From the NCBI GenBank assembly GCA_051362555.1, contig CM120647.1:248001-312000 (forward strand): a stretch of 64,000 nt of DNA, given 5' to 3'. The notes under the pieces are model-generated. The model was not told the DNA's origin. It worked only from the letters and a program-made list of their open reading frames with translations, and searched no databases. Every line of letters begins with the position of its first letter. The first letter of the stretch is position 1. Positions 5,909 to 63,525 of this stretch are shown one piece after another. The translations under genes and the position numbers were made by a program. The DNA comes from Lingula anatina (Eukaryota > Animalia > Brachiopoda).

Positions 5909-8900
5909 CACAGTTTTATGATTAAAATGTATTCAGCGCTTGTGTTGTAGAATGTAAATGTTTAACCTGAAATTATTTCATGTCACTGACATTGTGTTAA
6001 GCTTAGTACACGCTATGCGTCGTATCTGGAGTATTTTTATCACTGAATTACGCTCCATTTTTGAATAGGCTCAAACAAATAAATGCTTGTGAAAATAGTG
6101 TTGTCAACATAAAGGTCGCATACTGAGGTTAATAGGCGCACCTGTCAGTTGTTACCTGTTTTGTAGACGCGTTTTTTACTAGTAGAATATCGTATTTCCT
6201 TGTCGCCACAGCCAAAAGAAGAAACAAAAAAATACTTATATTACGCTTTTGACGGTTTGCTACGAGTCGAAAATTCCTTGGGCTGTTTTGTTTTATTTAT
6301 TCATTTGAATAAAAATTACTCTTATCTTTGTTAGATAACTTGTGTCCCTATCTATGTCTTATTGTCAATGAATTCCCCAAGTTCTGTGTTTTATTTCCAG
6401 ACGCCAGAGTTCTGGTCAAGTCAACATGAAGGCTGTGAGTCTGATGCTGGCAGCAGTTTGTGTGGTGTTACTGGCTTCCATGGCAATAGCCTCGGCCTCG
6501 AAAGATACGATAGAGGAGGCCACAGTCGAGGTAGCTAGGTCACCTGATTTTATCCAGTGTTGCTATGACAACATGAGATATGTTATAGTTAATTAACATT
6601 TCGTGTTTTAAAACAAGACGAATGAATCAATACATCTTAGAACAATCTGATAAAAAAAACATTAAAATGTCAGTATTGCCACAGGTAAGAATTTGCTGTC
6701 CAGTCAATGCGAGCGTCCTATCTCGCCTTGTATATTTTAAATATTTATATTTGCATGAGTGTTTATGATGCTGGCCGTGCTGTACTCCGTGAATATTTGT
6801 ATATGAATATTTTATATATTTATATATATAAAAGTGTGTACGGTATCTCATGATTCTCTCTCCAGGTGGCGCTAGCTGTGCTGAACTCTATATCAGCACT
6901 GTGGATATTTGTATATTTTACATATTTATATATGTATTAGTGTGTATGGTATTTCATGATTCTCTCTCCAGGTGGCGCTAGCTTTGCTGTACTCTATATC
7001 AGCGCTGTGGATATTTGTATATTTTATATATTTATATATGTATTAGTGTGTATGGTATTTCATGATTCTCTCTCCAGGTGGCGCTAGCTGTGCTGTACTC
7101 TCTGTCAGCACTGTGGATATTTATTACACTGGTTCTGGGCTGGACCAAGAAGCTGACTGTGGACCCCAGATATCTCCATCGCAAGAATAACCGGTTGTCC
7201 TTCCAGAAGATCGGCGCTGCAAGTAAGAAACTGTTACCGACGTCTCCATCGGTTGGACTGTAGTATTAATATTTAATTTACCAAGTTAACACTCAGCCAA
7301 GCCATATCATTGTGTTATATGTGAGAAAGTGTGTTAGCTGTGACATTATAGTAAACCAATGCTGTCTGTGGACACATGTGAGCCATATCATTAGGTTAGC
7401 TGTGACAAAGTGCCTTAGCTGTGGCATAATAATCATAGTAGAAGACAGTAAGGTTTTACTTCGTGTATGTTGTAACAGTGTGTTAGATGTGACATTGTTC
7501 TTGTACAATGCACTCGTTCAATGTTGAGACAGTGTGTTAGATGTGACAGCAGGCGTACACAATATGTTCTACATTTCAGTCTTCGGTACCGGTGCTATGT
7601 TATACAACGCCCTGAGAATAGCGGAGTTTGTTGCTGAGGACGCAGCCTGCAGGACAGTGGAGTATGTAGTGGTATCTGTGATGTCAATCCTCTTCACTTC
7701 TCTGCAAGTTTACCTCATCCTCATCTATGCCAAGGTAAGTTATGCTAAAACAACTGAACTCACTACTAGTCCTAATCAGTACTACTGTTGGACTTGCAAG
7801 TTTTGCCATAATTTAAGTCCCCTTTATTGTAGTATTTGGCTTCCAAATATGCTGATACGAAGAATCGATCTTAATTAAGTTAGATCTTGAGCAGAAGAAG
7901 CCTTATCTGAATTTGATTTTAGCTGTTCACAGAAAAGTAAAACGCTTTACTCTCTCATGAACGCAATTCCCACATTTAACCCGGTTAATGTTGGTATTTA
8001 ATCTCCTAGGTAACCATCAATAACGGTAAGCTGGTGCCTGTATTATCCCGGTTCGGGCTGATGCTAGTCCTGGCCACCAATATCGCGGTTTGGATCATTA
8101 CCACCATCTCGGAGGCCAAACACACGATGGAGGTCGAGCTGAAGAAGTCATCTGTGAACTACGACAAGCCACCTGTACCTTACACGTACACCAGTCCACG
8201 CCCTTACCTGTATAATGACTCCAGCACCATATCTTATCATAACAGTAAGTGTTTGATACACCAGTCCACGCCCTTACCTGTATAATGACTCCAGCACCAT
8301 ATCTTATCATAACAGTAAGTGTTTGATACACCAGTCCACACCCTTACCTGTATAATGACTCCAGCACCATATCTTATCATAACAGTAAGTGTTTGATACA
8401 CCAGTTCACAACCCTTACCTGTATAATGACTCCAGCACCATATCTTATCATAACAGTAAGTGTTTGATACACCAGTCCACACCCTTACCTGTATAATGAC
8501 TCCAGCACCATATCTTATCATAACAGTAAGTGTTTGATACACCAGTCCACACCCTTACCTGTATAATGACTCCAGCACCATATCTTATCATAACAGTAAG
8601 TGTTTGATACACCACCCCACACCTGTATAATGACTCCAGCACCATATCTTATCATAACAGTAAGTGTTTGATACACAACCCCACACCTGTATAATGACTC
8701 CAGCACCATATCTTATCATAACAGTAAGTGTTTGATACACCAGTCCACACCCTTACCTGTATAATGACTCTAGCACCGTATCTTATCATAACAGTAAGTG
8801 TTTGATACACCAGTCCACACCCTTACCTGTATAATGACTCCAGCACCATATCTTATCATAACAGTAAGTGTTTGATACACCAGTCCACACCCTAACCTGT

Positions 8901-11900
8901 TTAATGACTCCAGCACCATATCTTATCATAACAGTAAGTGTTTGATACACCAGTCCACACCCTAACCTGTTTAATGACTACACCACCATATCCACCACGC
9001 CGACCATCAAAACGTTGGTGGTCTAATGTAATTGCAACCAACTATAATAATCGTTAGTCTACGGTATATTGCAAAAACGTTTCTGATAAATTTTCAGGTT
9101 CAACAGGAAACGCTAACCACTCTTCCCATGATTCCTCGTGTGACCACAGTGGCGCCTCCTACCAGAGTACGTTTGCGTCATACCTGTACCCGTGTGTCAT
9201 CGAGTACAGTTTAATCTCTGCTACCACCGTGTTCTTGATCTGGAGTAAGGTACGGCTAACTCTATGTGCTAGTATCTATGTTAAAATACACCCACCACCA
9301 CCGTGTTCTTGATCTGGAGTAAGGTACGGCTAACTCTATGTACTAGTATCTATGTTAAAATACACCCACCACCACCGTGTTCTTGATCTGGAGTAAGGTA
9401 CGGCTAACTCTATGTACTAGTATCTATGTTAAAATACACCCACCACCACCGTGTTCTTGATCTGGAGTAAGGTACGGCTAACTCTATGTGTTAGTATCTA
9501 TGTTAAAATACACCCACCACCACCGTGTTCTTGATCTGGAGTAAGGTACGGCTAACTCTATGTACTAGTATCTATGTTAAAATACACCCACCACCACCAC
9601 CGTGTTCTTGATCTGGAGTAAGGTACGGCTAACTCTATGTACTAGTATCTATGTTAAAATACACCCACCACCACCGTGTTCTTGATCTGGAGTAAGGTAC
9701 GGCTAACTCTATGTACTAGTATCTATGTTAAAATACACCCACCACCACCGTGTTCTTGATCTGGAGTAAGGTACGGCTAACTCTATGTGCTAGTATCTAT
9801 GTTAAAATACACCCACCACCACCGTGTTCTTGATCTGGAGTAAGGTACGGCTAACTCTATGTGCTAGTATCTATGTTAAAATACACCCACCACCACCGTG
9901 TTCTTGATCTGGAGTAAGGTACGGCTAACTCTATGTACTAGTATCTATGTTAAAATACACCCACCACCACCGTGTTCTTGATCTGGAGTAAGGTACGGCT
10001 AACTCTATGTACTAGTATCTATGTTAAAATACACCCACCACCACCGTGTTCTTGATCTGGAGTAAGGTACGGCTAACTCTATGTACTAGTATCTATGTTA
10101 AAATACACCCACCACCACCGTGTTCTTGATCTGGAGTAAGGTACGGCTAACTCTATGTACTAGTATCTATGTTAAAATACACCCACCACCACCGTGTTCT
10201 TGATCTGGAGTAAGGTACGGCTAACTCTATGTGCTAGTATCTATGTTAAAATACACCCACCACCACCGTGTTCTTGATCTGGAGTAAGGTACGGCTAACT
10301 CTATGTGCTAGTATCTATGTTAAAATACACCCACCACCACCGTGTTCTTGATCTGGAGTAAGGTACGGCTAACTCTATGTGCTAGTATCTATGTTAAAAT
10401 ACACCCACCACCACCGTGTTCTTGATCTGGAGTAAGGTACGGCTAACTCTATGTACTAGTATCTATGTTAAAATACACCCACCACCACCGTGTTCTTGAT
10501 CTGGAGTAAGGTACGGCTAACTCTATGTGCTAGTATCTATGTTAAAATACACCCACCACCACCGTGTTCTTGATCTGGAGTAAGGTACGGCTAACTCTAT
10601 GTGCTAGTATCTATGTTAAAATACACCCACCACCACCGTGTTCTTGATCTGGAGTAAGGTACGGCTAACTCTATGTGCTAGTATCTATGTTAAAATACAC
10701 CCACCACCACCGTGTTCTTGATCTGGAGTAAGGTACGGCTAACTCTATGTACTAGTATCTATGTTAAAATACACCCACCACCACCGTGTTCTTGATCTGG
10801 AGTAAGGTACGGCTAACTCTATGTACTAGTATCTATGTTAAAATACACCCACCACCACCGTGTTCTTGATCTGGAGTAAGGTACGGCTAACTCTATGTAC
10901 TAGTATCTATGTTAAAATACACCCACCACCACCGTGTTCTTGATCTGGAGTAAGGTACGGCTAACTCTATGTACTAGTATCTATGTTAAAATACACCCAC
11001 CACCACCGTGTTCTTGATCTGGAGTAAGGTACGACTAACTCTATGTACTAGTATCTATGTTAAAATACACCCACCACCACCACCGTGTTCTTGATCTGGA
11101 GTAAGGTACGGCTAACTCTATGTACTAGTATCTATGTTAAAATACACCCACCACCACCGTGTTCTTGATCTGGAGTAAGGTACGGCTAACTCTATGTACT
11201 AGTATCTATGTTAAAATACACCCACCACCACCGTGTTCTTGATCTGGAGTAAGGTACGGCTAACTCTATGTGCTAGTATCTATGTTAAAATACACCCACC
11301 ACCACCGTGTTCTTGATCTGGAGTAAGGTACGGCTAACTCTATGTGTTAGTATCTATGTTAAAATACACCCACCACCACCGTGTTCTTGATCTGGAGTAA
11401 GGTACGGCTAACTCTATGTACTAGTATCTATGTTAAAATACACCCACCACCACCACCGTGTTCTTGATCTGGAGTAAGGTACGGCTAACTCTATGTACTA
11501 GTATCTATGTTAAAATACACCCACCACCACCGTGTTCTTGATCTGGAGTAAGGTACGGCTAACTCTATGTACTAGTATCTATGTTAAAATACACCCACCA
11601 CCACCGTGTTCTTGATCTGGAGTAAGGTACGGCTAACTCTATGTACTAGTATCTATGTTAAAATACACCCACCACCACCGTGTTCTTGATCTGGAGTAAG
11701 GTACGGCTAACTCTATGTGCTAGTATCTATGTTAAAATACACCCACCACCACCGTGTTCTTGATCTGGAGTAAGGTACGGCTAACTCTATGTGCTAGTAT
11801 CTATGTTAAAATACACCCACCACCACCGTGTTCTTGATCTGGAGTAAGGTACGGCTAACTCTATGTACTAGTATCTATGTTAAAATACACCCACCACCAC

Positions 11901-14900
11901 CGTGTTCTTGATCTGGAGTAAGGTACGGCTAACTCTATGTACTAGTATCTATGTTAAAATACACCCACCACCACCGTGTTCTTGATCTGGAGTAAGGTAC
12001 GGCTAACTCTATGTACTAGTATCTATGTTAAAATACACCCACCACCACCGTGTTCTTGATCTGGAGTAAGGTACGGCTAACTCTATGTACTAGTATCTAT
12101 GTTAAAATACACCCACCACCACCGTGTTCTTGATCTGGAGTAAGGTACGGCTAACTCTATGTGCTAGTATCTATGTTAAAATACACCCACCACCACCGTG
12201 TTCTTGATCTGGAGTAAGGTACGGCTAACTCTATGTGCTAGTATCTATGTTAAAATACACCCACCACCACCGTGTTCTTGATCTGGAGTAAGGTACGGCT
12301 AACTCTATGTGCTAGTATCTATGTTAAAATACACCCACCACCACCGTGTTCTTGATCTGGAGTAAGGTACGGCTAACTCTATGTACTAGTATCTATGTTA
12401 AAATACACCCACCACCACCGTGTTCTTGATCTGGAGTAAGGTACGGCTAACTCTATGTGCTAGTATCTATGTTAAAATACACCCACCACCACCGTGTTCT
12501 TGATCTGGAGTAAGGTACGGCTAACTCTATGTGCTAGTATCTATGTTAAAATACACCCACCACCACCGTGTTCTTGATCTGGAGTAAGGTACGGCTAACT
12601 CTATGTGCTAGTATCTATGTTAAAATACACCCACCACCACCGTGTTCTTGATCTGGAGTAAGGTACGGCTAACTCTATGTACTAGTATCTATGTTAAAAT
12701 ACACCCACCACCACCGTGTTCTTGATCTGGAGTAAGGTACGGCTAACTCTATGTACTAGTATCTATGTTAAAATACACCCACCACCACCGTGTTCTTGAT
12801 CTGGAGTAAGGTACGGCTAACTCTATGTACTAGTATCTATGTTAAAATACACCCACCACCACCGTGTTCTTGATCTGGAGTAAGGTACGGCTAACTCTAT
12901 GTACTAGTATCTATGTTAAAATACACCCACCACCACCGTGTTCTTGATCTGGAGTAAGGTACGACTAACTCTATGTACTAGTATCTATGTTAAAATACAC
13001 CCACCACCACCACCGTGTTCTTGATCTGGAGTAAGGTACGGCTAACTCTATGTACTAGTATCTATGTTAAAATACACCCACCACCACCGTGTTCTTGATC
13101 TGGAGTAAGGTACGGCTAACTCTATGTACTAGTATCTATGTTAAAATACACCCACCACCACCGTGTTCTTGATCTGGAGTAAGGTACGGCTAACTCTATG
13201 TGCTAGTATCTATGTTAAAATACACCCACCACCACCGTGTTCTTGATCTGGAGTAAGGTACGGCTAACTCTATGTGCTAGTATCTATGTTAAAATACACC
13301 CACCACCACCGTGTTCTTGATCTGGAGTAAGGTACGGCTAACTCTATGTACTAGTATCTATGTTAAAATACACCCACCACCACCGTGTTCTTGATCTGGA
13401 GTAAGGTACGGCTAACTCTATGTACTAGTATCTATGTTAAAATACACCCACCACCACCGTGTTCTTGATCTGGAGTAAGGTACGACTAACTCTATGTACT
13501 AGTATCTATGTTAAAATACACCCACCACCACCACCGTGTTCTTGATCTGGAGTAAGGTACGGCTAACTCTATGTACTAGTATCTATGTTAAAATACACCC
13601 ACCACCACCACCGTGTTCTTGATCTGGAGTAAGGTATGATTAACTCTATGTACTAGTATCTATGTTAAAATACACCCACCACCACCGTGTTCTTGATCTG
13701 GAGTAAGGTACGACTAACTCTATGTACTAGTATCTATGTTAAAATACACCCACCACCACCACCGTGTTCTTGATCTGGAGTAAGGTACGGCTAACTCTAT
13801 GTACTACTATCTATGTTAAAATACACCCACCACCACCGTGTTCTTGATCTGGAGTAAGGTACGGCTAACTCTATGTACTAGTATCTATGTTAAAATACAC
13901 CCACCACCATCGTGTTCTTGATCTGGAGTAAGGTACAGCTAACTCTATGTACTAGTATCTATGTTAAAATACACCCACCACCACCGTGTTCTTGATCTGG
14001 AGTAAGGTACAGCTAACTCTATGTGCTAGTATCTATGTTAAAATACACCCACCACCACCACCGTGTTCTTGATCTGGAGTAAGGTACGGCTAACTCTATG
14101 TGCTAGTATCTATGTTAAAATACACCCACCACCACCACCGTGTTCTTGATCTGGAGTAAGGTATGATTAACTCTATGTACTAGTATCTATGTTAAAATAC
14201 ACCCACCACCACCGTGTTCTTGATCTGGAGTAAGGTACGGCTAACTCTATGTACTAGTATCTATGTTAAAATACACCCACCACCACCGTGTTCTTGATCT
14301 GGAGTAAGGTACGGCTAACTCTATGTACTAGTATCTATGTTAAAATACACCCACCACCACCGTGTTCTTGATCTGGAGTAAGGTACGGCTAACTCTATGT
14401 ACTAGTATCTATGTTAAAATACACCCACCACCACCGTGTTCTTGATCTGGAGTAAGGTACGGCTAACTCTATGTGCTAGTATCTATGTTAAAATACACCC
14501 ACCACCACCGTGTTCTTGATCTGGAGTAAGGTACGGCTAACTCTATGTACTAGTATCTATGTTAAAATACACCCACCACCACCGTGTTCTTGATCTGGAG
14601 TAAGGTACGGCTAACTCTATGTACTAGTATCTATGTTAAAATACACCCACCACCACCGTGTTCTTGATCTGGAGTAAGGTACGGCTAACTCTATGTACTA
14701 GTATCTATGTTAAAATACACCCACCACCACCGTGTTCTTGATCTGGAGTAAGGTACGGCTAACTCTATGTGCTAGTATCTATGTTAAAATACACCCACCA
14801 CCACCGTGTTCTTGATCTGGAGTAAGGTACGGCTAACTCTATGTACTAGTATCTATGTTAAAATACACCCACCACCACCGTGTTCTTGATCTGGAGTAAG

Positions 14901-17900
14901 GTACGGCTAACTCTATGTACTAGTATCTATGTTAAAATACACCCACCACCACCGTGTTCTTGATCTGGAGTAAGGTACGGCTAACTCTATGTGCTAGTAT
15001 CTATGTTAAAATACACCCACCACCACCGTGTTCTTGATCTGGAGTAAGGTACGGCTAACTCTATGTACTAGTATCTATGTTAAAATACACCCACCACCAC
15101 CGTGTTCTTGATCTGGAGTAAGGTACGGCTAACTCTATGTGCTAGTATCTATGTTAAAATACACCCACCACCACCGTGTTCTTGATCTGGAGTAAGGTAC
15201 GGCTAACTCTATGTACTAGTATCTATGTTAAAATACACCCACCACCACCGTGTTCTTGATCTGGAGTAAGGTACGGCTAACTCTATGTGCTAGTATCTAT
15301 GTTAAAATACACCCACCACCACCGTGTTCTTGATCTGGAGTAAGGTACGGCTAACTCTATGTACTAGTATCTATGTTAAAATACACCCACCACCACCGTG
15401 TTCTTGATCTGGAGTAAGGTACGGCTAACTCTATGTACTAGTATCTATGTTAAAATACACCCACCACCACCGTGTTCTTGATCTGGAGTAAGGTACGGCT
15501 AACTCTATGTACTAGTATCTATGTTAAAATACACCCACCACCACCGTGTTCTTGATCTGGAGTAAGGTACGGCTAACTCTATGTACTAGTATCTATGTTA
15601 AAATACACCCACCACCACCGTGTTCTTGATCTGGAGTAAGGTACGGCTAACTCTATGTACTAGTATCTATGTTAAAATACACCCACCACCACCGTGTTCT
15701 TGATCTGGAGTAAGGTACGGCTAACTCTATGTACTAGTATCTATGTTAAAATACACCCACCACCACCGTGTTCTTGATCTGGAGTAAGGTACGACTAACT
15801 CTATGTACTAGTATCTATGTTAAAATACACCCACCACCACCACCGTGTTCTTGATCTGGAGTAAGGTATGATTAACTCTATGTACTAGTATCTATGTTAA
15901 AATACACCCACCACCACCGTGTTCTTGATCTGGAGTAAGGTACGGCTAACTCTATGTACTAGTATCTATGTTAAAATACACCCACCACCACCGTGTTCTT
16001 GATCTGGAGTAAGGTACGGCTAACTCTATGTACTAGTATCTATGTTAAAATACACCCACCACCACCGTGTTCTTGATCTGGAGTAAGGTACGGCTAACTC
16101 TATGTACTAGTATCTATGTTAAAATACACCCACCACCACCGTGTTCTTGATCTGGAGTAAGGTACGGCTAACTCTATGTACTAGTATCTATGTTAAAATA
16201 CACCCACCACCACCGTGTTCTTGATCTGGAGTAAGGTACGGCTAACTCTATGTACTAGTATCTATGTTAAAATACACCCACCACCACCGTGTTCTTGATC
16301 TGGAGTAAGGTACGACTAACTCTATGTACTAGTATCTATGTTAAAATACACCCACCACCACCACCGTGTTCTTGATCTGGAGTAAGGTACGGCTAACTCT
16401 ATGTACTAGTATCTATGTTAAAATACACCCACCACCACCGTGTTCTTGATCTGGAGTAAGGTACGGCTAACTCTATGTACTAGTATCTATGTTAAAATAC
16501 ACCCACCACCACCGTGTTCTTGATCTGGAGTAAGGTACGGCTAACTCTATGTACTAGTATCTATGTTAAAATACACCCACCACCACCGTGTTCTTGATCT
16601 GGAGTAAGGTACGGCTAACTCTATGTACTAGTATCTATGTTAAAATACACCCACCACCACCGTGTTCTTGATCTGGAGTAAGGTACGGCTAACTCTATGT
16701 GTTAGTATCTATGTTAAAATACACCCACCACCACCGTGTTCTTGATCTGGAGTAAGGTACGGCTAAATCCATGTAGTTCAACGTTTAGGTGTTTGTATAA
16801 AAAACTATATACTTTTTCTCCTTTTTTCAGGTCAAAATACAAAACAGACGCAAATTTGGTCTGCACCAACGCCAAGATGTTCCGCGCAGTGTAAGTTTCT
16901 ATGGCAACCGTGGCAATTTTAAGAAGTCTTCGTCTTTGGCAAAGATGGAGCACCAGAGAAAGTGTTTCTCCATCGTACTACCTCAGATCCAGGAAGAGTC
17001 GTTCTCGGACGAAAGCACGGGAAACTGCGAGAATCCTAAGGAGTCCAGCACAGACCCGGAGACGGGGGCCGGGAGCATACCTCGCCCCAAGAGCTTGCCG
17101 CTCATTAAGAACCTCAACGAGAATCCCGAGCCGGAGTCACCTCTCGCCACAACTGAAAAGGTTCACTTCAATATCGGTTCAAGCGAGCTGGGCCCGGAGG
17201 CCGGTCACCCTGCGCGTGGCTATGACATCCAGGGAGGTGTCCACACCCCTGAAGAGCCGGTTAGTAATGGCAGCGCGTTCGTTGGTTTTAACAGGAACAA
17301 GCACGTGTCGTCGATACGGTCTGTGGCATCAGAGAGGTCTATAGCTACCACAGTGTTTGAACCTAACTGGTCTGAGGAGAGAGAGCATACGTACGTCAAC
17401 AACCACTGCGGGCTGTTTGTTGGAATGTTGGTTATCCTGGCGTCAGTGGCTGTCATCATTGTGTTCCTATATCTCATGTATAACGGCAAAAGTCCAGACC
17501 TGGCCAACTCACATCTCTTTGGTACAAAAATCTTCATCAACGCCCTCAGTATCTTAGTCACGATCGCCACTCATATTCAGATAAAGGGCTTGATGAAAAA
17601 GACAGATAATCTCAAAGAAATGGGCCGTCTTGGGCGTGACCCGCGGCGCCACGTGCCCTCTAGGGGGCAGCAGCATCAGCAGTCGATGGATAAAGCTCTG
17701 CTGGGGATCGCCACGCTGGGTCTCCTCACCTACTGCATGCTGACCATTATAGCGGGTCTGTCAACCGCGGGCATGGAGGCAGCCTTAACCACAGCAGACG
17801 CTTTTTGTACTAGCACACAGGCCATCATCCAGTCACTGTTCCTCGTGACGTCATTTCTGCCAAGACGAGCCACATTGAGGGAACACAGGGAGAAAAGACC

Positions 17901-18153
17901 TGGCCGGCAGGGGCTAGTATTCTTGCTCTGCTGCAACTTTTGCCTGTGGGCTTTGAACTCCTTCGGTCTACGAAATGAGATCGCAAACCACGTGCAAATA
18001 GAATTTTACTCTTTTAAAACGTGGATTATCTTGTCACACGTGTCGTTGCCTCTTCTGATCTTGTTTCGTTTTCACTCCCTTGTCTGTATTGCTGACGTCA
18101 TTTCTCACGCATATACAGCCAAATACATTGGCTTGGAGTCTCATGGGACGTAG
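3907..18153 (+). CDS. Otop: Otopetrin-family proton channel (Otop-like), 7 coding exons, ~728 aa
   Basis: Exons 3907-3953, 6401-6530, 7078-7222, 7580-7734, 8010-8244, 9098-9249 and 16831-18153 all have GT-AG introns and join in one frame. The product has many hydrophobic helices and the otopetrin motifs YLYPCVIEYSL (exon 6), GLFVG and LILFRFHS (last exon). Exon 1 (MAWTDAESELADKLNG) is phase-compatible but less certain. Confidence 0.9.
6790..7122 (+). repeat. 106-bp tandem repeat spanning the Otop exon 3 acceptor (3 copies)
   Basis: TCTCTCTCCAG|GTGGCGCTAGCT recurs with AG ending at 6865, 6971 and 7077. Confidence 0.92.
8188..8992 (+). repeat. 70-bp tandem repeat spanning the Otop exon 5 donor (11 donors plus a partial unit)
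   Basis: CATAACA|GTAAGT repeated from 8245 to 8934. Confidence 0.95.
9222..16766 (+). repeat. 74-bp minisatellite spanning the Otop exon 6 donor (~102 copies, 7.5 kb)
   Basis: Unit CCACCACCACCGTGTTCTTGATCTGGAGTAAG|GTACGGCTAACTCTATGTACTAGTATCTATGTTAAAATACAC. First donor 9250, last 16757; the 7507-bp span equals 101 x 74 plus eleven 3-bp CCA variants. Confidence 0.98.
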
Positions 18154-39675: not shown

Positions 39676-39741
<66 letters not shown>

Positions 39742-43795: not shown

Positions 43796-43852
<57 letters not shown>

Positions 43853-47767: not shown

Positions 47768-48138
47768 GCAAACCTGGTGGTATCCATCTCAGAGGAATCA
47801 ATCCTGGTGGTATCCATCTCAGAGGAAGCAAACCTGGTGGTATCCATCTAGGAGGAATCAAACCTGGTTGTATCCATCTCAGAGGAATCAAACCTGGTGG
47901 TATCCATCTCAGAGGAAGGCAACCTGGTGGTATCCATCTCAGAGGAAGCAAACCTGGTGGTATCCATCTAGGAGGAATCAAACCTGGTTGTATCCATCTC
48001 AGAGGAATCAAACCTGGTTGTATCCATCTCAGAGGAAGGAAACCTGGTGTTATCCATCTCAGAGGAAGCAAACCTGGTGGTATCATCTAGGAGGAATCAA
48101 ACCTGGTTGTATCCATCTCAGAGGATGGAAACCTGGTG
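47768..48138. repeat. 30-bp minisatellite (~12 copies)
   Basis: AACCTGGTGGTATCCATCTCAGAGGAAGCA units. Confidence 0.93.
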
Positions 48139-51691: not shown

Positions 51692-51742
<51 letters not shown>

Positions 51743-54700
51743 AGTGTTATATAAAACACAAAGGACTCACCCTAAATGTGGCCAAAATGATCCGGGTCAC
51801 CTTCTCCTTCACTGACTCTCCCAGTATGTCAGCCAAGATGGGGATGACATTGTATCTAAATGTATAAATATATGTCGAAGTATATCTAAATACAAATAGG
51901 CTGTAATTTAGTAGAATGTGAACATACAAATAACATTGTATAACATTATGAAGAGCAATGTATAGACATGTACAAACAAGTTGATATAAATGCTGAGCAC
52001 ACAGCTGCTATACTGAGGTACTGTACTCACTTGTTCATCTTCTCAGCCAGCTCAGGGTTGAAGGTCATACACCACAGACAGAAGGTCAACTGGTACTGAA
52101 TCTGGAAGCCAACCTTGCCAGGGAGAACTTGGATAATCCTGGGATAGAACACAATATGTTACTTAATAACCAACATGGCCAGGGAGAACTTGGATAATCC
52201 TGGGATAGAACACAATATGTTACTTAATAACCAACCTTGCCAGGGAGAACTTGGATAATCCTGGGAAAGATCACAATATGTTACATAATAACCAACCTTG
52301 CCAGGGAGAACTTGGATAATCCTGGGACAGATCAGGGGAAGAAGGATGTCACAATATGTCACTTCCTAGATCATTTTAACTATATGGCTACTACACTTTA
52401 TGATCTCACACACTCCCAACAGGGGCAGATTTAGGGCGTCTTCTGGGTCTTCCGGAAGACGGTCAGATTTTCAAGTTTACATTGACGGGTATCTAATATT
52501 TTCTGTCGGAAGACAGTCAAAAATAGAGGATGGACTAACAAAGATAATTTGGAAGACTGTCAGAAAATATCTCTGGATCAACCGCTGCCCAAGATACTAG
52601 TACTTCAAATATTCGTAACATCTAAAATTAAGTGTGCCTGTACTTATATACTAATACATTTCATATTGACAAAAGCATGCCAGTACTCACATACTTATGC
52701 CCTCCACATTGACAAAATCATGCCTGTACTTACATACTTATGCCGTCCACATTAACAAAAGCATGCCTGTACTCGTCGATTCTTAGCATCATCTGCAGAC
52801 AGCGACAGACGGTTTGTAAGTATTCATTGCTCTGGAAAATAAAGGAATAATTACACAACTGAGAATAAGTTTTAGATAACAGACTGAAATCAAATGCCAA
52901 AAAAGGATATTCCACATTAAAAAATGTATTTTTCAGATATTTCATGATTTTCATAACTTAAAATTGAAGTAGCAAGTTTGACCTGGTTCTGCTAAGTAAA
53001 TCTTTGATCCAGATTTAATCTAATGTCTTCACTGATGGCTGGTTTTCATATCAGTAAAACTTAAAACACAATATCTTTTCCAATCCTAAAGTACAGAAGC
53101 ATCCCTACACCATGGACTAAATATTTTCTAGGTAAGTATAATGAAGAATACCGTGAGTAATAAAGCATGCAGGCATTCAATATAACATCCTGTCCACCAG
53201 TTCTTATGCTGGTTATGAGGAAACCAGGCCAGTTGCACTGATTAGAGGCAGAATTATGTTATAAAAACACATGCAAATGACAACTGATTAAAACAATTCA
53301 ACCAGGCCCATAGCCAGGGGGGGGGGGGTTTCGGGGGTTAGAAAGAACAGCCCTTTTTGTGGGGAAAAGGTCCACTCTGGGTAGAATTTGATCTAGGTAC
53401 ATGAAGTTTTTATGGAAAAAGATCCACTTTTTCAGAAAAAGAACCCCCTTTTGAAATTGCTGGCTACGGGCCTGTCAACCCACCCAAAGTAAAGACACCA
53501 GAGAAGGAAAAGTGGCAGTCTAAACAGCATTAGCCAATTGTTTGTCAGCATTTAGGTTCACAAACAGACAATCAATCAAAAGATACAGTAACTATACTCT
53601 GTTTGACATAGATAATGTCAACATTACCAGGGACGGATCCAGAATGACAGGCCTCAGAGGGGTGAGGGGTTTGGGCCTGCTCAAGGGCCCCAAAAATTTG
53701 TGGTGTTTTGGAGAGCAAACAGTGCCCTTTGGTATGGTTTAGAACTATGATTTAGCTAGTCAAAATTCTAATTTCAAGAGGAAAATATTGGTGTGATATA
53801 TTTTTCAGAAACCAAAGATTACTGTCTTCTAGTACACCCTGACCCCACACATACTGGCAGTCTCATGTGTTGTCCTTAGATTGACTCCGCCTACTTAATC
53901 AATCTCTGGTGTAGTCATAAATTTCATCCTGCCCAAACTTTCAATCACTTAAACCTGGTCCCACCTACTCTGTCAATCACCAGTGTAGTCCTAAGCCTGA
54001 CCCCACCCAGTCTGTCAATCACCAGTGTAGTCCTAAGCCTGACCCCACCCAGTCTGTCAATCACCAGTGTAGTCCTAAGCCTGACCCCTCCCAGTCTGTC
54101 AATCACCAGTGTAGCCCTAAGCCTGACCCCACCCAGTCTGTCAATCACCAGTGTAGCCCTAAGCCTGACCCCACCCAGTCTGTCAATCACCAGTGTAGCC
54201 CTAAGCCTGACCCCACCCAGTCTGTCAATCACCAGTGTAGCCCTAAGCCTGACCCCACCCAGTCTGTCAATCCCATGTGTGAAGATAAATGTGTGTGTAT
54301 GTGTTTGTGGAGGTAAAACTGCCAACATATATCAGTTTCAATGAATTTTCATATCTAGAAATATAACTAACATTTTTCCACAACTAATTAGATCATATCT
54401 GCAGAGAGGACAGATGTGTTTTGTTAACTTCTACACATGCAGTGGCAGTTACATCAAGTTTGAAATACATCAAATAGAGAAAAATGTTTGGCCATGAGTT
54501 GAACAGTTTTAATCATCACTTTCAAAAAATTCTTCAAATAGAGAAAAGCAAAGTTCAGTGTTGCTAAGAGGGAAATAAAAGAATGAATAAAATATCTAGA
54601 GAAGGTGATCACAGCAAATTAAGAATACTGCAAAGTCATTCCATGTCTATATCACAAAAGAAGCTTGCATTAAGAGAGTTGGACAGAAAGTGTTAAAGTG

Positions 54701-56246
54701 TAAATTTGCAAACTCAACACTTGTGTACTTGGCACATTTTGATTCTTATATTTTTCTGGTGCTTTTCGCAAGTTAATATAATATTATACTACTTGGCATT
54801 GTGAGAGCTTACCACCCCCCGCCTCCACACACACACACACACACAGAATGGTCCCAAACTCACACTGGTCCCAGGTGTGTTCCTGGACTGCTGTTTCCAC
54901 AGCTGAAATCACAATGTTAGGTGAGACACTGGTAGGTGAGCCAGTGATGAGAGAATGTGTTAGATGTGACATTGATGACAGAATGTGCTGGACGTGACAT
55001 TGATGAGATGTGTTAGGTGTGACAGTGATGAGAGCATGTGTTAAATGTGACAGTGAGATGTGAATGTGTTAGATGTGACAGTGAGATGTGAATGTGTTAG
55101 ATGTGACAGTGAGATGCGAATGTGTTAGATGTGACAGTGAGGTGTGAATGTGTTAGATGTGACAGTGAGATGTGAATGTGTTAGATGTGACAGTGAGATG
55201 TGAATGTGTTAGATGTGACAGTGAGATGTGAATGTGTTAGATGTGACAGTGAGGTGTGAATGTGTTAGATGTGACAGTGAGATGTGAATGTGTTAGGTGT
55301 GACAGTGAGGTGTGAATGTGTTAGATGTGACAGTGAGATGTGAATGTGTTAGGTGTGACAGTGAGATGTGAATGTGTTAGATGTGACAGTGAGATGTGAA
55401 TGTGTTAGATGTGACAGTGAGATGTGAATGTGTTAGATGTGACAGTGAGGTGTGAATGTGTTAGGTGTGACAGTGAGATGTGAATGTGTTAGGTGTGACA
55501 GTGAGATGTGAATGTGTTAGATGTGACAGTGAGATGTGAATGTGTTAGATGTGACAGTGTTCTAAGACTGTTTCCAAAGCTTAAATCACAATATGTGGAC
55601 AACTGCTTTAATACCACACTTCTCCAATGTCTACGTGAGTGTGCACGCACGCACACACACACACACACACACATCAGGGGCTCCAACAGGACCTGATTTT
55701 AGTGAATTTTTTAGTTTTCATGTCATCACTCAATTTGTGTAGAAATAAACAAAGATAAACTTCATTATCTTTCGGCCAAGGTGAACCTAGTACCATTGAT
55801 TTAATGTTATTTTATTTCCTTTTTATATGTATTTTATCACATACAATGGCTGAATAAATAATATAACCACAGTCCTGGGATTGGCATGCTGGTTTGACTA
55901 TAAACACCCGAGACGTCACACAGACTACTTACTGCACAGAACAACACAAACATGCAGTAGTCTCCACATAACACACCGAATAAAAACATGCAAAACTAAA
56001 AAAAAAAAAAAAAAAAAAAAAAAAACTGACAGCTGCAGAGAAACAGAAACTGCACCTGAATGAAGTGCCAAGTAGGAGCAAGATGCAGACCCAGTATTAT
56101 CTATGCTGAAGCCAGCAGGGGTCCTGTTACAAGCAGCTTACCTCCTGGGAGAGACCGGAGACAGACAGGGGAGACACAGAGTGGACCCACCCAGCACACT
56201 CCAGCTTTAGTTCCACAGAAAATGACAACAGTGAAGAATTTAGAAA

Positions 56247-56291
<45 letters not shown>

Positions 56292-59200
56292 CAGAGAGAG
56301 AAACTGATTCAATGAAATTACTCTAAAAATACAGAAAAAGAAGGTACACGAGAACAGACAATGTTATTAGCCAAGGTGTTCTCTGGTTTCTTTTAGTTTA
56401 ATTAAATACTTTATTTCCACATAATCCAACACATTAACTAAGGTTCACAAAAATAGGAAGAAAGTAGAAGGGGAGGGGGTTAAAACACCTGACTTGGTAT
56501 CCATTAAAAAAATAAGGGTAATTGGGGTATATTGTAAAAATTAAAGGTGGAGTTTGGTTCTGTTGTTCTGTAGATTTAAGGCAATGATACTAAGTCAATA
56601 CTAAGAGCTCATGCAGAGACTAACATGGGGGTCAAGGTCAACAACAGACAAGGTTTTCCCCAGCAAACCGTCCAGCTGTCATTTGGGCAGCCGCCGGCAT
56701 CACTGGACAGTCATTATTTTCAAAGACAGCTGGAGGGCTTACACATTTTTTGATGAATGATGACTTGGACCCCATGGCCTTTAGTAGGAAATTACAGATG
56801 ATAATTTTGGATGACCTGTAGCCCCAATGCTGGGAAAAACCCTGACAACAGGTGTCCCTTAACCAGAGACTGAAGACACATTTCACAATAAATAATAAAC
56901 ATAAAAGTAAATATAACAAAATAAACAATGCAAAATAATATTTGAAACACTTTTTAAAAGCCATGCTTTCTACTATCATAAACACTTCTCCTCTCAACTC
57001 TACAGACATCTTGTTCAGCAGTTTTAAGAGGAAATGTGACGTCAGTAATTCCTACAATATTCACAACCAAATTGCCAGTTTTGTCAATGTTTCAAATTGT
57101 TTAAAAATGGTTTCCAAATACATCTCCAGGTTTAAAGTATTCAGACCAAGGCATCAATAATAGTAATGGCATAGTCCCTGCCCCTAACCTCCTTTTCAAA
57201 AGTACAAAGTTGTATCTTATCCCACTGCCTCCCCCAGACAAAGATGTTTACTGTTGCTATAGTTACCTGTCCTTTCATCAGCTGGTCCTTTAGCCAGTTC
57301 AGGTAGAACTGCAGATCTCGGCCGTCCATCAGCTCCTTGCTCCAACAGGCAATCTTGGCGATGACACGGCTACTCTGTAAACAGAAGCAGCAACATTAGA
57401 GTGAGCTGGATTTCACATCTCACTGTCATACCAAACACATTCACATCTCACTGTCACATCTAACACATCTCACTGTCACACCTAACACATTCACACTTTA
57501 CTGCCACATCTTACACAGTCACACCTCACTGTCACACCTAACACATTCACATCTCACTGTCACACCTAACACATTCACATCTCACTGTCACATCTAACAC
57601 ATTCACATGTAACACATTCACACCTCACTGTCACATCTAACACATTCACACCTCACTGTCACATCTAACACTGTCACATCTAACACATTCACACCTCACT
57701 ATCCCATCTAACACATTCACATCTCACCATCACATCAAACACAATCACACATCTACCTGTATCCAGAAGAAAGGCCACACAAACTTCTCCACCCTGCACA
57801 TACCTGGTTGACAATGAACCCATCTGGTCTGTTTAACATATTCAGGAATGGCTCCCACACAGAACATTTGTGATGCTTTGCGTACTGCCTGAACATCTCA
57901 ACTCGACTTTTGTCCTCCTGAAGATTATACATAAAATGATTATAAATCTGTTACTCATAGCCGACTTGTTCAATGCTTTACTTTAGGAATATAAATAATT
58001 CTAACATAGTGACACCTTCCACGGCAGAGCCATGCCTTTCTGTACAGAGTAGCAGTGTGGGTCTCCTGGTAGACTGGACACAGATGGCAGTGTAAATCAA
58101 GACAAGACAATATACAGAGTAGCAGTGTGGGTTATCCTGGCAGAGAGCTACAACTGGACAAGAGTACCCTCTACCAGGGACACAGATTGATATTCCACAA
58201 GATATTCACACGTCTTTAGATATATAGACAGATATTTGGTTCTCTGTCACCCTGTAATGAAATCTCAAGGATGACTACATGGTTGTTAATTGTCTACATT
58301 TCTGCTCAAGCGCTGCCACTTTACAGGCCCAAGCCAAGTCCACTTGACAACAATCAAGACAACTAATTGCTCTGATTTTAATCCTTTTGAATAGCTTGCT
58401 ACTTAAGATTGAAGTTAACTGAGGAATCTCCTGTAGTAACTCCCTACATAATGGGTACAATGCCATCTGTGCACCTGCAGATTTAATTGTTTCCATCTTA
58501 CCAAAAGTTACAGGGTGGCTTTTGGCAAAGCTGCCTATACAGTCTGCCACCCTGGTAGAGGGAAGGACAACAGATGGCAGTGTAAATTAAGACAAGACAA
58601 TTTACCTGTAATATATCATCCAGCATGGTGAGTATGTACTGCATGGTTTGGTCCTTGGAGATGTGGGACATCAGACTCACAAATGTGGTAGCCACCTGGT
58701 GGGAGTGAAAGATAATAAGATAAGAAGGATAATAATTTAATGAGCCAATAAAATACTGATGTACAAAATCGGGAAAAAGAAAAGGAAAAAAAAAAACATG
58801 ATAACAGATGTAAATTAACATTTGTTAAGACCAACAACTAGCAATTTTTTAAATTATCAATCAGGAGCACATCCATCAATTTATTTTCATAATTTGTATA
58901 CCTGTAGTGGGTGTTATATAGAAATAAATAGACTACATACCTGTACTGGATGTTCAGTTATCAGTTGTCTTCTAGTCTCTGGGTTCATGGAAGTGTTAGG
59001 GTCTAGTTTGGTAATGATGTTATACTCTTCTTGGTTGATCATTTGACCTCTGAAATATAAAGACCACATTTAAAGAAAACGAAAAACTTTCCTTCACAAA
59101 ACTAAAGTTATAATCTGAGTGCAATATTTGAAACTAGAAAAAATGATATTTTAACTCAATGAGACTATAATATACTAAGTGAACACAATTTAAAAGCACT

Positions 59201-59899
59201 TTATCCTCAATTATTGATATGGGAAAAGTTGGTAGCTTGGAAGGATAAGCTAATACACATACACATTATGACTTTGGGAAATTTTCAAATATGTACAATG
59301 TATATTTAAACACTCACTCACTACTAAAATACACTTATAAATAATATAATTCCAATAAAAGCATAGAAAGCCTGCTGATTCTCTACACTTACTGTAAGTA
59401 GGACTGCCAGTTTACTCTGTTCAGCCGTACATCATTGGCTCTCTGCATCAAGAGACTGGTTGCCACGGCAATACCTGGAACGTAACAACCCTGTCTAATT
59501 ATGTGACCTTAATGTTATCTACCTCCCACACATTTCTCAATACAAATCAGGAATTATAACACCATCAACAACAATAGTAAAACTACCCAATTTATTCCTT
59601 CAATTTTTAACACATTCTTTTACTCAAATGAAGTCAAATTTCATGCCAGTCGCGTGTACCTCAGTTTTACAAAAATACATCAGATTGTCATTAACCATGG
59701 TTTTGTGTTCATTAATAAAAACGTTGCTGTCACCGACTGCCAACTGAACCACAGTAAAACACAGGCAGTAATCTTGACAGTGACAGTCACTGCAGCTTGA
59801 GCCGGTCCTGTCACTCTGCTTACCAGACTTTTCCAGGTCGTCAATGCTAGATATAACCGCATCCAGACGATCACCAATTTTCTCCTTCAAATTGGACAT
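48916..59899 (-). CDS. ATP6V1H: V-type proton ATPase subunit H, 14 coding exons, ~487 aa
   Basis: Exons 59899-59824, 59474-59393, 59049-58941, 58695-58606, 57917-57804, 57374-57267, 52831-52734, 52138-52031, 51855-51771, 51216-51038, 50566-50441, 50303-50202, 49424-49311 and 48988-48916 join in frame. Diagnostic peptides: [66 protein letters not shown]. Confidence 0.96.
49418..49942. repeat. AT-rich compound repeat starting at the ATP6V1H exon 13 acceptor
   Basis: ATAACACTG(G/A)AAATATAACAATATATCAC subunits with a 150-bp higher-order period. They include copies of CAG|TGTTAT on the minus strand. Confidence 0.8.
52108..52328 (-). repeat. 61-bp tandem repeat spanning the ATP6V1H exon 8 acceptor (4 acceptors)
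   Basis: CCCAG|GATTATCCAAGTTCTCCCTGGC recurs with AG at 52139, 52200, 52261 and 52322. Confidence 0.92.
52420..52587. mobile_element. MITE of the same family
   Basis: Shared core TCTTCTGGGTCTTCCGGAAGACGGTCAG; TSD CCCAA on both sides. Confidence 0.78.
53303..53474. mobile_element. MITE, CAGGCCC TIR, 5-bp TSD (related copy 4461-4630 in the opposite orientation)
   Basis: CAGGCCCATAGCCAG...CTGGCTACGGGCCTG with TSD TCAAC. Confidence 0.78.
53950..54272. repeat. 42-bp minisatellite (~7.5 copies)
   Basis: CAGTCTGTCAATCACCAGTGTAGCCCTAAGCCTGACCCCACC units. Confidence 0.92.
54945..55559. repeat. 28-bp minisatellite (~20 copies)
   Basis: GTGAGATGTGAATGTGTTAGATGTGACA units. Confidence 0.93.
57412..57745. 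repeat. Inverted, more degenerate array of the same 28-bp unit
   Basis: TGTCACATCTAACACATTCACATCTCAC units are the reverse complement of 54945-55559. Confidence 0.9.
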
Positions 59900-60368: not shown

Positions 60369-61584
60369 ATGACATCTGGAAAAACGCCATCGGGAAAGAC
60401 AATCCTTCACCACATCAAGTTGGAGAATTTGGTCGGCGGAATGGCTGGCGGCATAGTTTCCACGGCCGCACTACATCCGTTAGATCTGGTGAAAGTGCGA
60501 TTTCAGGGTAAATATGGTGTTACTGGGGCATTCTTACTTGTATTTCGGTACAGATTTAATCTTGATGTCGTGCATCATTGACATTCTCACCTTTAGAGAC
60601 TTCAGAAGAATATTGTCGTCAAGTCAAACGTTATATCCTGATTGCGTAATCGCATTTGATTTATATTCGCTATGACATATTCTGTGTGAAATGATCATGA
60701 AGCTTAAAATTAAACCTTAATATAACATTGATTAGGACAATAAATCAGTGGTTGACACAGATGAAGTATCCCAGTAACTTTATGTACCTGTGTTAGCGAG
60801 CGCAGACGTCCCTAGGTGGCGTTAGTTGTTCTATTTCGAGAAGCGCCATTAAAACTGTCCCCAGAGTATCAGATTTCAACCCGCTCTTACAATGCACGGC
60901 GTATCTCAACTACTGCATCGGGAACAACCCTACCTTAACACGTGATAGAGAACAGCTGTTACTTCCTTTTGGGTATTGTTTTCGCGATCTACGAGAGGTC
61001 AGAAGTGAAAATTTTTAAGGGCAAACTTTTAAACTGATTTATTTTTTGAAGTCGGCAAAGGGCGGCAAGACAAAATATATGCCATGTAGAAGAACAAGGA
61101 CTAAGGTTTCTAACCAACATTTCAGATTTTTGGGCAAATTTGGGCAAATATTTTTTTTGTAATTTATTTCAACGCCCCCCCCCCCTCGCACACGCTTGTT
61201 GACCGCAGCCAGTCGAGGTCAATTTTTACTGCGTACGCTTAACAAAAATGTTACATCGCTTGCATACATCAGTTAGAAGTGATAATAACAGAGAAAATCC
61301 TGATTGTGATGAGTTTGTTGGGAATCATGGTGAAATGCACTAAAAAGTAAAAGCCTGAGTGGACTTTGACAAGCTACTTTGACATAATTATTTAACTCTG
61401 AGCAGGTGTTTTCATCCGTTTTGCGGCGTCAATACATTGAATAATCCTGACTCTTCTTCTTGGTTGTCTGGTTTAGCAAGGAGTTGTAACTTCTTGGGTT
61501 TAGCGTCTCTGACTGATTATAAAGGTCTTAATGGGGCCTTGACAGATTTATCATTGATTAATTAATTAACTTTTTTTTTTTTTT

Positions 61585-61616
<32 letters not shown>

Positions 61617-63392
61617 ATTTACGTATGCTGTTTACACATCTTTGCCAAGGGAAAGACTTCAAATGACCTGGAAGGTGTGAATATTGTTAAGTCCCTTTTG
61701 GAAATTTCTATGTACATGTAGGTATTTGTGTGAAGAACTTTAGATTTAAGTATATGTATATAATTATATTTATATCTAGAACTTTAGGAGATGGATGTAC
61801 ATTGAAATAAAATTAAAAAAAATTTTTTGAGGAAGCCAACAAGAGACAATAGGTTATCCATTTTTTTTTTTTTTTTTTTTTTGTGATTTACTAATGTTGT
61901 TTTTATATATCTCCGTGCCAAAGACTTAAAACAGCTCAAGTTCCCTTTTAAAACTTACTGTCATTTGTATTGATATATTATATTTACTTTTTATATATGT
62001 AGACTTCTGTAGTATAGTTGAACCAACAGCTTTTTAAAACTAAAATAATCAGTTTTGTGGTGCAAGAATTCCCTATAACAGAGGTTAAATCACATTTGTG
62101 TATTCTTTACTTAAATTGGTAGACAAATTGGAAGCACAAATATTGTTACAGATAATTCTTATACTTTTTCAATATAATCTTGGATCAGAAAACTCTGTTA
62201 AGTCACATGAATTAAAAAAATTAAGTCTATCATTCATACGTGGCAAGTTAATTTTCAATGATATTTAAGCTTTAAAACATTTATGCATTACTAGTAGGTT
62301 TAAATAGTAGTATCACAGGTGCTACATGTATATAGCTTGATTTATTTTCTTTCAAGCTCACCATATATTGTTTTCTGACATGAAATATATAATTAAATTT
62401 TGGTTTATACTAATATCAAGACAACTGCTGGAGAGAGAGAATTTTATTACAAACTGCCTTATCAGCATTTATAAGCAGGGGTGATGGAAATATGCATGGG
62501 GGTAACATCCTCAGAAGTGGGGGCATTTTTATTTTTTGCAGGAAGTTTATCATTAAAGAAAATTATGTGCCATGTACATACTATACATATGTGTTCGATA
62601 CTAAGGAGTAAGAGTACATATGCAAGAATAACCTTATGATCCCCAGGGTGTGGGTTGTTCCTAAGTTTGAATGATTGTTTTTTTTTTCACAATGACAATT
62701 TGCCACTTATACTATTAATTTTGTACTAATACTCATATGTAAGACAACTCTTCTGCCAAGAGTTTTAGTCTTGTTGATTAATAAAACCTAAGAAATGTGT
62801 ATTTTCTAGCATTTACCGTCAAAAAATCCTTCATTTTGCTTAATTCACATGCACATAACTCTGCTTAGGAAAATGCTAGAACCAAAATTTAAACTTTGGG
62901 TTAATGCCCAACTTCTATACTTCATGTGTGCCAAATTTCAAATGTCTGTGACAATATTAAGGGGATGAAAAATGATGGGGGCAACTTTTGTCTCATTTTT
63001 GAAAATGGCGCCTGAAAAAAAGAACAAACATGGTGTTACTAAAACTTGAATAACTTTTGATCTAAATGAGATAGATTAAAAATTTAAATTGATTATTCAT
63101 ACTCAAATGTGTGGCTATCTGTACACCAAATTTCAAGTCTCTAGCTCACTTAGAAAAATATCATGTGTGCACCCTACCTGTGTTGCATCATCTCTTTGAA
63201 GTCTCATGATTCACACGCTATATTTTCCTCTACAGTTGATGAAGGGATAGGCATCACAAACCGACCCAAGTATACAGGATTATGGCATGCATTTAAGACA
63301 ATTTTCAAGACAAGTGGACCACTGGGCTTGTATCAGGGTGCTGTACCAAATATCACTGGTGCTGGAGCTGCTTGGGGGTTCTACTTCCTATT
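60369..63392 (+). CDS. SLC25A32: Mitochondrial folate/FAD carrier (SLC25A32-like), first two exons; continues beyond the window
   Basis: Exons 60369-60507 and 63236-63392 encode [29 protein letters not shown] (carrier signature PxDxxKxR), then RPKYTGLWHAFKTIF...GLYQGAVPNITGAGAAWGFYF. Confidence 0.88.
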
Positions 63393-63525
63393 GTAAGTAC
63401 TAGGGGTGGAGGTGCTTGGGGGTTCTACTTCCTATTGTAAGTACTGGGGGTGGGGGTGCTTGGGGGTTCTACTTCCTATTGTAAGTACTGGGGGTGGGGG
63501 TGCTTGGGAGTTCTACTTCCTATTG
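63369..63525 (+). repeat. 44-bp tandem repeat spanning the SLC25A32 exon 2 donor
   Basis: TTCTACTTCCTATT|GTAAGTACT with GT at 63393, 63437 and 63481. A fourth copy ends ...CTATTGCAG. Confidence 0.92.

What the first reader, a model, noticed from the sequence alone, without database searches (positions are those of the whole stretch)
6790..63525. Splice-site-anchored tandem repeats recur across unrelated genes: a candidate intron-expansion / decoy-splice-site system
Seen: at least 8 exon-intron junctions in 3 intact genes carry tandem repeats whose unit includes the splice site plus flanking exon and intron sequence. Otop has a 106-bp acceptor x3, a 70-bp donor x11 and a 74-bp donor x102. ATP6V1H has a 61-bp acceptor x4, a 43-bp donor repeat (52663-52774), a 30-nt acceptor duplication (51851-51891) and a compound acceptor repeat (49418-49942). 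SLC25A32 has a 44-bp donor x3-4. The units are unrelated and each derives from its local junction. The copy adjoining the exon body gives the conserved protein, and the extra copies extend into the intron. Inference: either a mutational process is focused on junctions (for example transcription- or splicing-coupled slippage or repair), or a very active genome-wide local duplication process survives in genes only where splicing removes the extra copies. Either way the spliceosome must choose one site among up to 102 near-identical ones.
Basis: partly seen in the sequence, partly recalled or inferred. Interest (0 to 1): 0.9.

Follow-up and report, generated by a model that had tools for sequence, protein, structure and literature searches.

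The report
Brachiopod splice-junction "mirage" minisatellites
In a lamp-shell (Lingula) genome, short pieces spanning exon edges are copied head to tail up to 102 times into the neighbouring introns, and RNA reads show that splicing mostly uses the copy next to the exon, so this is a dense new example of a repeat type already described in lancelets and humans and is likely harmless.

Summary
The arrays are real. Seven of the eight claimed junction repeats hold (3, 11 and 102 copies in Otop; three arrays in ATP6V1H; one in SLC25A32). The 30-nt one is no better than chance. I found two more junction duplications. The spliced ATP6V1H model matches a Lingula anatina (brachiopod) protein at 487 of 487 residues. 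RNA reads use the exon-adjacent copy at the four real arrays with listed joints or loose ends. One run also holds about 26 reads inside the 70-bp array: either leak to downstream donors or unspliced RNA. This is the known 'mirage' minisatellite of amphioxus; human F7 intron 7 is the donor-side equivalent. This scan noted the same pattern on other DNA (41 findings, at least 14 genomes). My searches found no report for Lingula. In the three genes 7 of 11 arrays span a junction against 1.9 expected, but the genes were picked for this. At Otop exon 2, an allele in other animals' RNA matches the decoy copies at 4 of 5 variant sites, hinting at exchange between array and exon. No sign of a dedicated decoy system. 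New member of a known kind; modest interest.

The parts
6401..18153 (+). Otopetrin gene; coding exons 6426-6530, 7078-7222, 7580-7734, 8010-8244, 9098-9249, 16831-18153 (704 aa)
   Evidence: Open spliced model; Pfam Otopetrin on three exons; RNA joints for introns 1-4 and loose ends into exon 6
6728..7122 (+). 106-bp acceptor-spanning array, 3 copies with AG; the last (7078) is spliced
   Evidence: 19 reads join 6530 to 7078, no joint listed at 6866 or 6972
8187..8992 (+). 70-bp donor-spanning array (58 exonic nt), 11 copies with GT; the first (8244) is the main donor
   Evidence: 36 reads join 8244 to 9098; 8 reads placed at 8933 with only 27 nt on the short side; about 26 reads lie inside the array in X14
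9223..16775 (+). 74-bp donor-spanning array (27 exonic nt), 102 copies with GT, 11 unit types, one 26-unit block present twice; the first donor (9249) is used
   Evidence: 64 reads leave at 9249-9251 into exon 6 sequence (only 6300-9860 was laid)
18611..24368 (-). Fourth gene (uncharacterised, six exons), not in the finding
   Evidence: Model identical to P0056 at 339 of 340 residues
19299..19522 (-). 157-nt-offset duplication of an exon end plus donor (19466 in the gene model, copy at 19309) in the fourth gene
   Evidence: not tested with RNA
48916..59899 (-). ATP6V1H gene, 14 coding exons, 487 aa
   Evidence: 487 of 487 residues identical to P0003, which has 21 further residues from one extra exon; Pfam V-ATPase H
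49418..49939 (-). Compound AT-rich array (150-bp higher-order unit) ending in the exon-13 acceptor at 49424
   Evidence: 80 reads join 50202 to 49424; RNA depth about 0 at 49548-49909; DNA contig depth 193.8 inside against 66-83 on flanking contigs
50371..50518 (-). 45-nt copy of an internal part of exon 11 lying 103 nt downstream, beyond the donor at 50441; the donor itself is not repeated
52109..52334 (-). 61-bp acceptor-spanning array, 4 copies with AG; last copy (52138) in the model
   Evidence: X18 molecules end at 52138 and bin depth fits the exon share; the joint itself was not among the rows shown
52635..52774 (-). 43-bp donor-spanning array, 3 copies, 2 with GT; first copy (52734) in the model
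   Evidence: one DNA contig of X6 spans it without gaps; RNA joint not among the rows shown
51851..51891 (-). Claimed 30-nt acceptor duplication: not distinguishable from chance; acceptor 51855 is used
   Evidence: 74 reads join 52031 to 51855
60369..63392 (+). SLC25A32-like mitochondrial carrier, first two coding exons (60369-60507, 63236-63392)
63355..63525 (+). 44-bp donor-spanning array, 3 copies with GT plus a truncated fourth
   Evidence: not tested with RNA

Best explanation
These are 'mirage' minisatellites in Lingula genes: tandem arrays whose unit holds an exon edge and its splice signal, likely formed by local DNA duplication and likely lengthened by slippage or unequal exchange, with RNA reads showing the exon-adjacent copy as the main splice site. 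Shown: the arrays, intact GT/AG in nearly all copies, open reading frames, and the main splice at the first donor or last acceptor. Inferred: the duplication happens in DNA, not through spliced RNA, since no unit holds an exon-exon joint and the exonic share of a unit runs from 0.05 to 0.95. Inferred: position, not site strength, decides the choice, since the copies are identical over the 14-nt context; this is what was shown experimentally for human F7. Inferred: the arrays persist because the extra copies always fall on the intron side, and any slip to the next copy would shift the frame and meet a stop codon, so it would be degraded.
For: Arrays and copy contexts. RNA: 19 reads to the last Otop acceptor, 36 from the first 70-bp donor, 64 from the first 74-bp donor, 80 to the last compound acceptor; one search listed only 5 joints and hid none. 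Use of the neighbouring copy gives a frameshift and a stop in 6 of 6 arrays tested. TRF arrays cover 18,000 of 64,000 bases, many far from junctions, so tandem duplication is common here. The 74-bp array holds a 26-unit block twice, and outer units are diverged or truncated, as expected of unequal exchange. A DNA run holds the ATP6V1H arrays. Same anatomy in amphioxus and human genes.
Against: A splice-blind process predicts 1.9 junction arrays among 11 TRF arrays in the three genes, and 7 are seen (P = 0.0004); 9 of 16 against 3.0 with all local duplications in four genes. The null already excludes wholly exonic placements, so the survival filter alone does not explain this; selection of the window might. 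About 26 sense reads lie inside the 70-bp array in X14 and some in X17, so choice may not be perfectly clean. The copy number 102 has no independent check.
Confidence: 0.72

Rival explanations
1. Duplications arise preferentially at exon edges, for example because exons are the best-matching stretches between divergent alleles and repair or recombination tracts that start there slip at the intron edge, or through transcription-coupled damage. The arrays are still mirages, but their origin is junction-biased.
For: 3- to 4-fold excess at junctions in the window. At Otop exon 2 the other allele seen in RNA matches decoy copy 6972 at 4 of 5 variant sites (7102, 7104, 7110, 7123) where the window's own exon differs, which points to exchange between alleles at the array edge. 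Lingula heterozygosity is given as 1.6%. Two earlier AI notes also mention modest over-representation (unchecked).
Against: The genes were selected for the pattern. Array lists were hand-curated. The shared alleles could be the ancestral state kept in the copies, with later change in this exon. Breakpoints are not at the splice sites.
Confidence: 0.17
2. The extra donors are functional: a share of transcripts uses downstream copies, gains a premature stop and is destroyed, so copy number tunes expression of Otop.
For: About 26 sense-strand reads within the 70-bp array in X14, while introns 1 and 3 have depth 0 and the unique 3' part of intron 4 is nearly empty; with an 11-copy allele this would be roughly 5-10% of transcripts. 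Human 6-16 and CBS use the second and third copies.
Against: No well-anchored joint from a downstream donor: the 8 reads at 8933 have at most 27 nt on the short side, inside the repeated exon part. A longer allele in that animal plus trace unspliced RNA would give the same pile. The 74-bp array shows about 0.1 depth per genomic base. Leak is not function.
Confidence: 0.07
3. The arrays are assembly artefacts.
For: A nearby 7-kb segment is duplicated at 99.9-100% identity, which can be an assembly error. No run spans the 7.5-kb array.
Against: Unit variants and block structure in the 74-bp array; diverged copies at 83-95% in others; a DNA run spans the 43-bp array without gaps and shows raised depth in the compound array; RNA reads lie across consecutive 70-bp units.
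Confidence: 0.04

Closest known systems
Amphioxus 'mirage' minisatellites (Adh3, globins BflGb6 and BflGb9, troponin C, PGBD5). Seen: passages of PMC3087553 and PMC3902484. The original Adh3 paper (PMC117041, cited) was not held, so I know it only through these citations and recall.
   Same: Unit spans an exon-intron boundary; both donors and acceptors are duplicated; units of 10-160 bp; normal splicing kept; boundary units escape homogenisation.
   Different: Brachiopod, not cephalochordate; up to 102 copies against 2-7 in the globin and PGBD5 cases read; eight or nine junctions in 64 kb; instability between alleles or cells not tested here.
Human donor-spanning minisatellites: F7 intron 7 (37 bp), 6-16, CBS intron 13, LMNB2, PDGF intron 4. 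Seen: abstract, introduction and discussion of PMC1557585.
   Same: Identical donor copies run into the intron and the most upstream one is used; some genes leak to the next copies.
   Different: Those are single loci with 5-26 copies and donors only; here several genes in a row carry them, acceptors included. The scanning mechanism was tested in F7 and not here.
Internal tandem repeats at exon-intron boundaries in human segmental duplications. Seen: passages of PMC2812944.
   Same: Tandem repeats at exon-intron boundaries that can alter splicing.
   Different: There the repeats are proposed to create new introns in young paralogs; here they lengthen existing introns of conserved genes and no new intron is shown.

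Membership tests
Mirage minisatellite | Tandem unit spans an exon-intron boundary | tested here: met
   7 TRF arrays overlap modelled junctions, with 7-58 exonic nt; 4 of these junctions are placed by RNA joints or loose ends
Mirage minisatellite | Extra copies keep GT or AG signals | tested here: met
   3 of 3, 11 of 11, 102 of 102, 4 of 5, 4 of 4, 2 of 3 and 3 of 3 context copies
Mirage minisatellite | Occurs at both donors and acceptors, unit about 10-160 bp | tested here: met
   Four donor and three acceptor arrays with units of 43-150 bp; ranges
Mirage minisatellite | Regular splicing is kept | tested here: met
   Main joints use the exon-adjacent copy; a minor unexplained read pile lies inside the 70-bp array; three arrays lack a direct joint
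Mirage minisatellite | Concerted evolution inside the array with diverged boundary units | tested here: met
   Two unit types make up 81 of 101 complete 74-bp units; outer units diverged or truncated; qualitative only
Mirage minisatellite | Length instability between alleles or somatic cells | tested here: inconclusive
   One other DNA run spans the 43-bp array with no gaps; its contigs break at the other arrays. No long reads were available
F7-type donor minisatellite | The most upstream of identical donors is selected | tested here: met
   8244 and 9249 carry the anchored reads
F7-type donor minisatellite | Downstream copies are functional and take over in order when upstream ones are mutated | not testable with these tools
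   Needs minigene mutagenesis as in PMC1557585
Intron gain by tandem duplication (Rogers model as cited) | A new intron lies between duplicated proto-splice sites | tested here: not met
   At the arrays with RNA evidence the copies lie inside an ordinary intron bounded by a non-repeated partner site; intron age was not tested

The most novel reading that the evidence does not exclude
In Lingula and other polymorphic marine invertebrates, tandem duplications are generated preferentially at exon edges by recombination between divergent alleles; the arrays then trade sequence with the working exon, feeding amino-acid variants into it, and leak a copy-number-dependent share of transcripts into decay. 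Mirages would then be a genome-wide mutational signature of exon edges with effects on protein variation and expression, not scattered curiosities.
Probability: 0.17. Interest if true: 0.6.

Novelty: new member of a known kind. Interest (0 to 1): 0.27.

Why it matters
The type is known, so the find alone changes little. It extends mirages to a brachiopod and gives a natural test of splice-site choice among 102 near-identical donors and among repeated acceptors, where RNA already favours a positional rule. If the excess at junctions holds genome-wide, it would point to an unrecognised mutational bias at exon edges and make the mirage model of intron change testable. Such arrays can also mislead gene prediction and short-read splice mapping.

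Tried and rejected
No whole genome is held for this window, so the genome-wide enrichment test could not be run. The original mirage paper was not held under DOI, PMC id or PubMed id. My first guess, amphioxus, was rejected by protein identity to Lingula. The 30-nt duplication was rejected. RNA-templated origin rejected: no unit holds an exon-exon joint. Rfam: 0 matches in the window. The run search listed no RNA holder among indexed runs; RNA came from raw-read runs added by species label, 7 of the 9 listed were laid. Adding a DNA run to crowded the joint table (29 rows hidden), so minor RNA joints in ATP6V1H cannot be excluded from that table. Frame bias: none of the six arrays tested has a unit length divisible by 3, too few to mean anything. 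Literature searches for a Lingula report: 'Lingula anatina + genome + minisatellite' 0 papers; 'Lingula + tandem repeat + intron' 37 papers, 25 listed, none on this by title; the 2015 genome paper's main text has no 'satellite' and no passage on this (supplements not read and may bear on it). A five-term search for genome-wide enrichment gave 0 papers. The library lacks most subscription papers. The scan index had no note holding Lingula and mirage words together and none for this genome.
Full report
Observation. Tandem Repeats Finder recovers the claimed arrays at the stated places. Exact gene models put them on splice junctions: Otop is open over 704 residues and ATP6V1H over 487; Pfam confirms Otopetrin, V-ATPase H and mitochondrial-carrier exons (13 of 15 pieces had a hit). 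Counting the 14-nt junction context gives 3, 11 and 102 copies in Otop, 5, 4 and 3 in ATP6V1H and 3 in SLC25A32, nearly all with intact GT or AG. The claimed 30-nt duplication is not convincing: 14 of 30 identity, and 1 of 10 other acceptors scores as well. Self-BLAST shows two further junction duplications, at ATP6V1H exon 11 and in a fourth gene.

Organism. ATP6V1H exon 10 is 100% identical to a protein named Lingula anatina, the next hits being 80% or less. The whole model matches it at 487 of 487 residues, and the fourth gene matches another Lingula protein at 339 of 340. The window is therefore from Lingula anatina or a very close relative, a brachiopod.

Which copy is spliced. On 6300-9860, four RNA runs gave five joints, all shown. 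Nineteen reads join 6530 to 7078, the last acceptor; none is listed for 6866 or 6972, and depth there is 0 to 0.4, though the tool skipped two short repeat stretches in that intron. Thirty-six reads join 8244, the first 70-bp donor, to 9098, with up to 75 nt on the short side. Sixty-four reads leave at 9249-9251, the first of 102 donors, into exon 6 sequence; two loose-end rows were not shown. On 48100-53500, 80 reads join 50202 to 49424 and 74 join 52031 to 51855; RNA depth in the compound array is about 0. For the 61-bp acceptor the evidence is indirect: molecules end at 52138 in one run and bin depth fits the exon's 0.31 share. The joints for the 61-bp and 43-bp arrays are not among the rows shown; 29 rows were hidden. 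The 44-bp array was not tested.

Against a perfectly clean picture. In run X14 about 26 sense-strand reads lie within the 70-bp array, while introns 1 and 3 are empty and the unique end of intron 4 nearly so. Eight reads are placed from the last donor (8933), but with at most 27 nt on the short side they cannot be assigned to a copy. With an 11-copy allele this would be about 5-10% leak to downstream donors; with a much longer allele it could be trace unspliced RNA. I cannot separate the two.

How it likely works. No unit contains an exon-exon joint, and the exonic share of the unit runs from 0.05 to 0.95, so the duplications look DNA-level and not cut at splice sites (inferred). Any tandem copy of a piece spanning a junction leaves one complete exon beside the first donor or last acceptor and puts the rest in the intron (follows from the geometry). 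Use of the next copy would shift the frame and meet a stop in 6 of 6 arrays tested, so leak would be removed by nonsense-mediated decay (established knowledge, not tested). Expansion by unequal exchange or slippage is suggested by a 26-unit block present twice in the 74-bp array and by diverged outer units. Since copies are identical around the splice site, position must decide; this was shown by mutagenesis for human F7 (abstract, introduction and discussion of PMC1557585).

Is there an excess at junctions? TRF arrays cover 28% of the window. After collapsing arrays and excluding wholly exonic placements, 7 of 11 TRF arrays in the three genes span a junction against 1.86 expected (P = 0.0004). 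With all local duplications it is 8 of 14 against 2.58, and with the fourth gene 9 of 16 against 3.04. I left out microsatellites, arrays in UTR or intergenic DNA, the P450 region and the rejected 30-nt case; one intronic entry (58030-58140) came from reading. The excess is suggestive only.

A hint of exchange. At Otop exon 2, RNA from X17 and X19 carries other letters at 7102, 7104, 7110 and 7123. All four equal decoy copy 6972 and differ from the window's exon; a fifth variant (7088) does not match. Two codons change (L/I and I/V). Either the copies keep the ancestral state, or alleles recombine at the array edge. Only the 40 best-supported variant rows were shown, 37 were not.

Reality of the arrays. 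A DNA run spans the 43-bp array in one contig without gaps and shows depth 193.8 in the compound array against 66-83 on flanking contigs. Its independence from the assembly is not known. The count of 102 rests on the assembly alone.

Comparison with what is known. Tandem repeats spanning exon-intron boundaries were named mirages in amphioxus Adh3 and reported for globins, troponin C and PGBD5, at both donors and acceptors and without disturbed splicing (passages). The original paper was not held. Human F7, 6-16, CBS, LMNB2 and PDGF carry donor-side equivalents. The arrays here meet every defining feature I could test; instability was inconclusive. I recalled the mirage name before searching and confirmed it. 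The scan's own notes list 41 findings with these words in at least 14 genomes, including annelid, abalone, urchin and elephant-shark-type DNA; these are unchecked AI notes and not support. Searches found no report for Lingula and no genome-wide test.

Verdict. A real, dense example of mirage minisatellites in a new phylum for the published record I could search, with direct RNA evidence for the exon-adjacent choice. No evidence of a dedicated decoy system. Interest 0.27. The open and testable part is whether duplications are biased to exon edges and trade sequence with exons (probability about 0.17, interest 0.6 if true).

Noticed in passing
window 20105-27332 and 27330-34480: A tandem duplication of about 7.2 kb at 99.9-100% identity (1 difference in 2707 nt). 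It repeats exons 1-3 of the fourth gene and the last exon of a P450. The 42-bp array inside has 14.3 copies in one and 19.3 in the other: fast array turnover or an assembly error.
   Followed up: partly
window 23088-23294, 24138-24370, 30000-30232, 31076-31308: The first coding exon of the fourth gene is present four times at about 97% identity; one copy lacks its 3' end.
   Followed up: partly
window 33880-44127, minus strand: A cytochrome P450 gene (Pfam hit; heme motif in the last exon) with an 11-bp array at 41702-41845 in or at an exon, a 59-bp array in intron 2 and a stray partial copy of exon 2 near 42770-42820. Intactness unclear.
   Followed up: partly
   Followed up: partly
window 51856-52030: This 175-nt ATP6V1H intron splits 193 coding nt into 108 + 85. 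From recall, untested, the human gene has one 193-nt exon here, so the intron may be a gain or loss worth checking against the mirage model.
   Followed up: no
window 48878-48922, minus strand: A 12-bp repeat of 3.8 copies begins at the ATP6V1H stop codon.
   Followed up: no
window 7300-7550, 54953-55559, 57412-57750: A dispersed 28-bp minisatellite family occurs in introns of two genes and in both orientations; RNA loose ends at 7345-7549 show further copies elsewhere.
   Followed up: partly
window 3900-6401: RNA loose ends at 6400-6401 show at least two different upstream 5' exons for Otop, one matching the stretch ending near 3953.
   Followed up: no
window 52420-52580, 53330-53475, 50700-50890, 51260-51490: Short high-copy dispersed elements inside ATP6V1H introns, with very high DNA contig depth; unclassified.
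   Followed up: no
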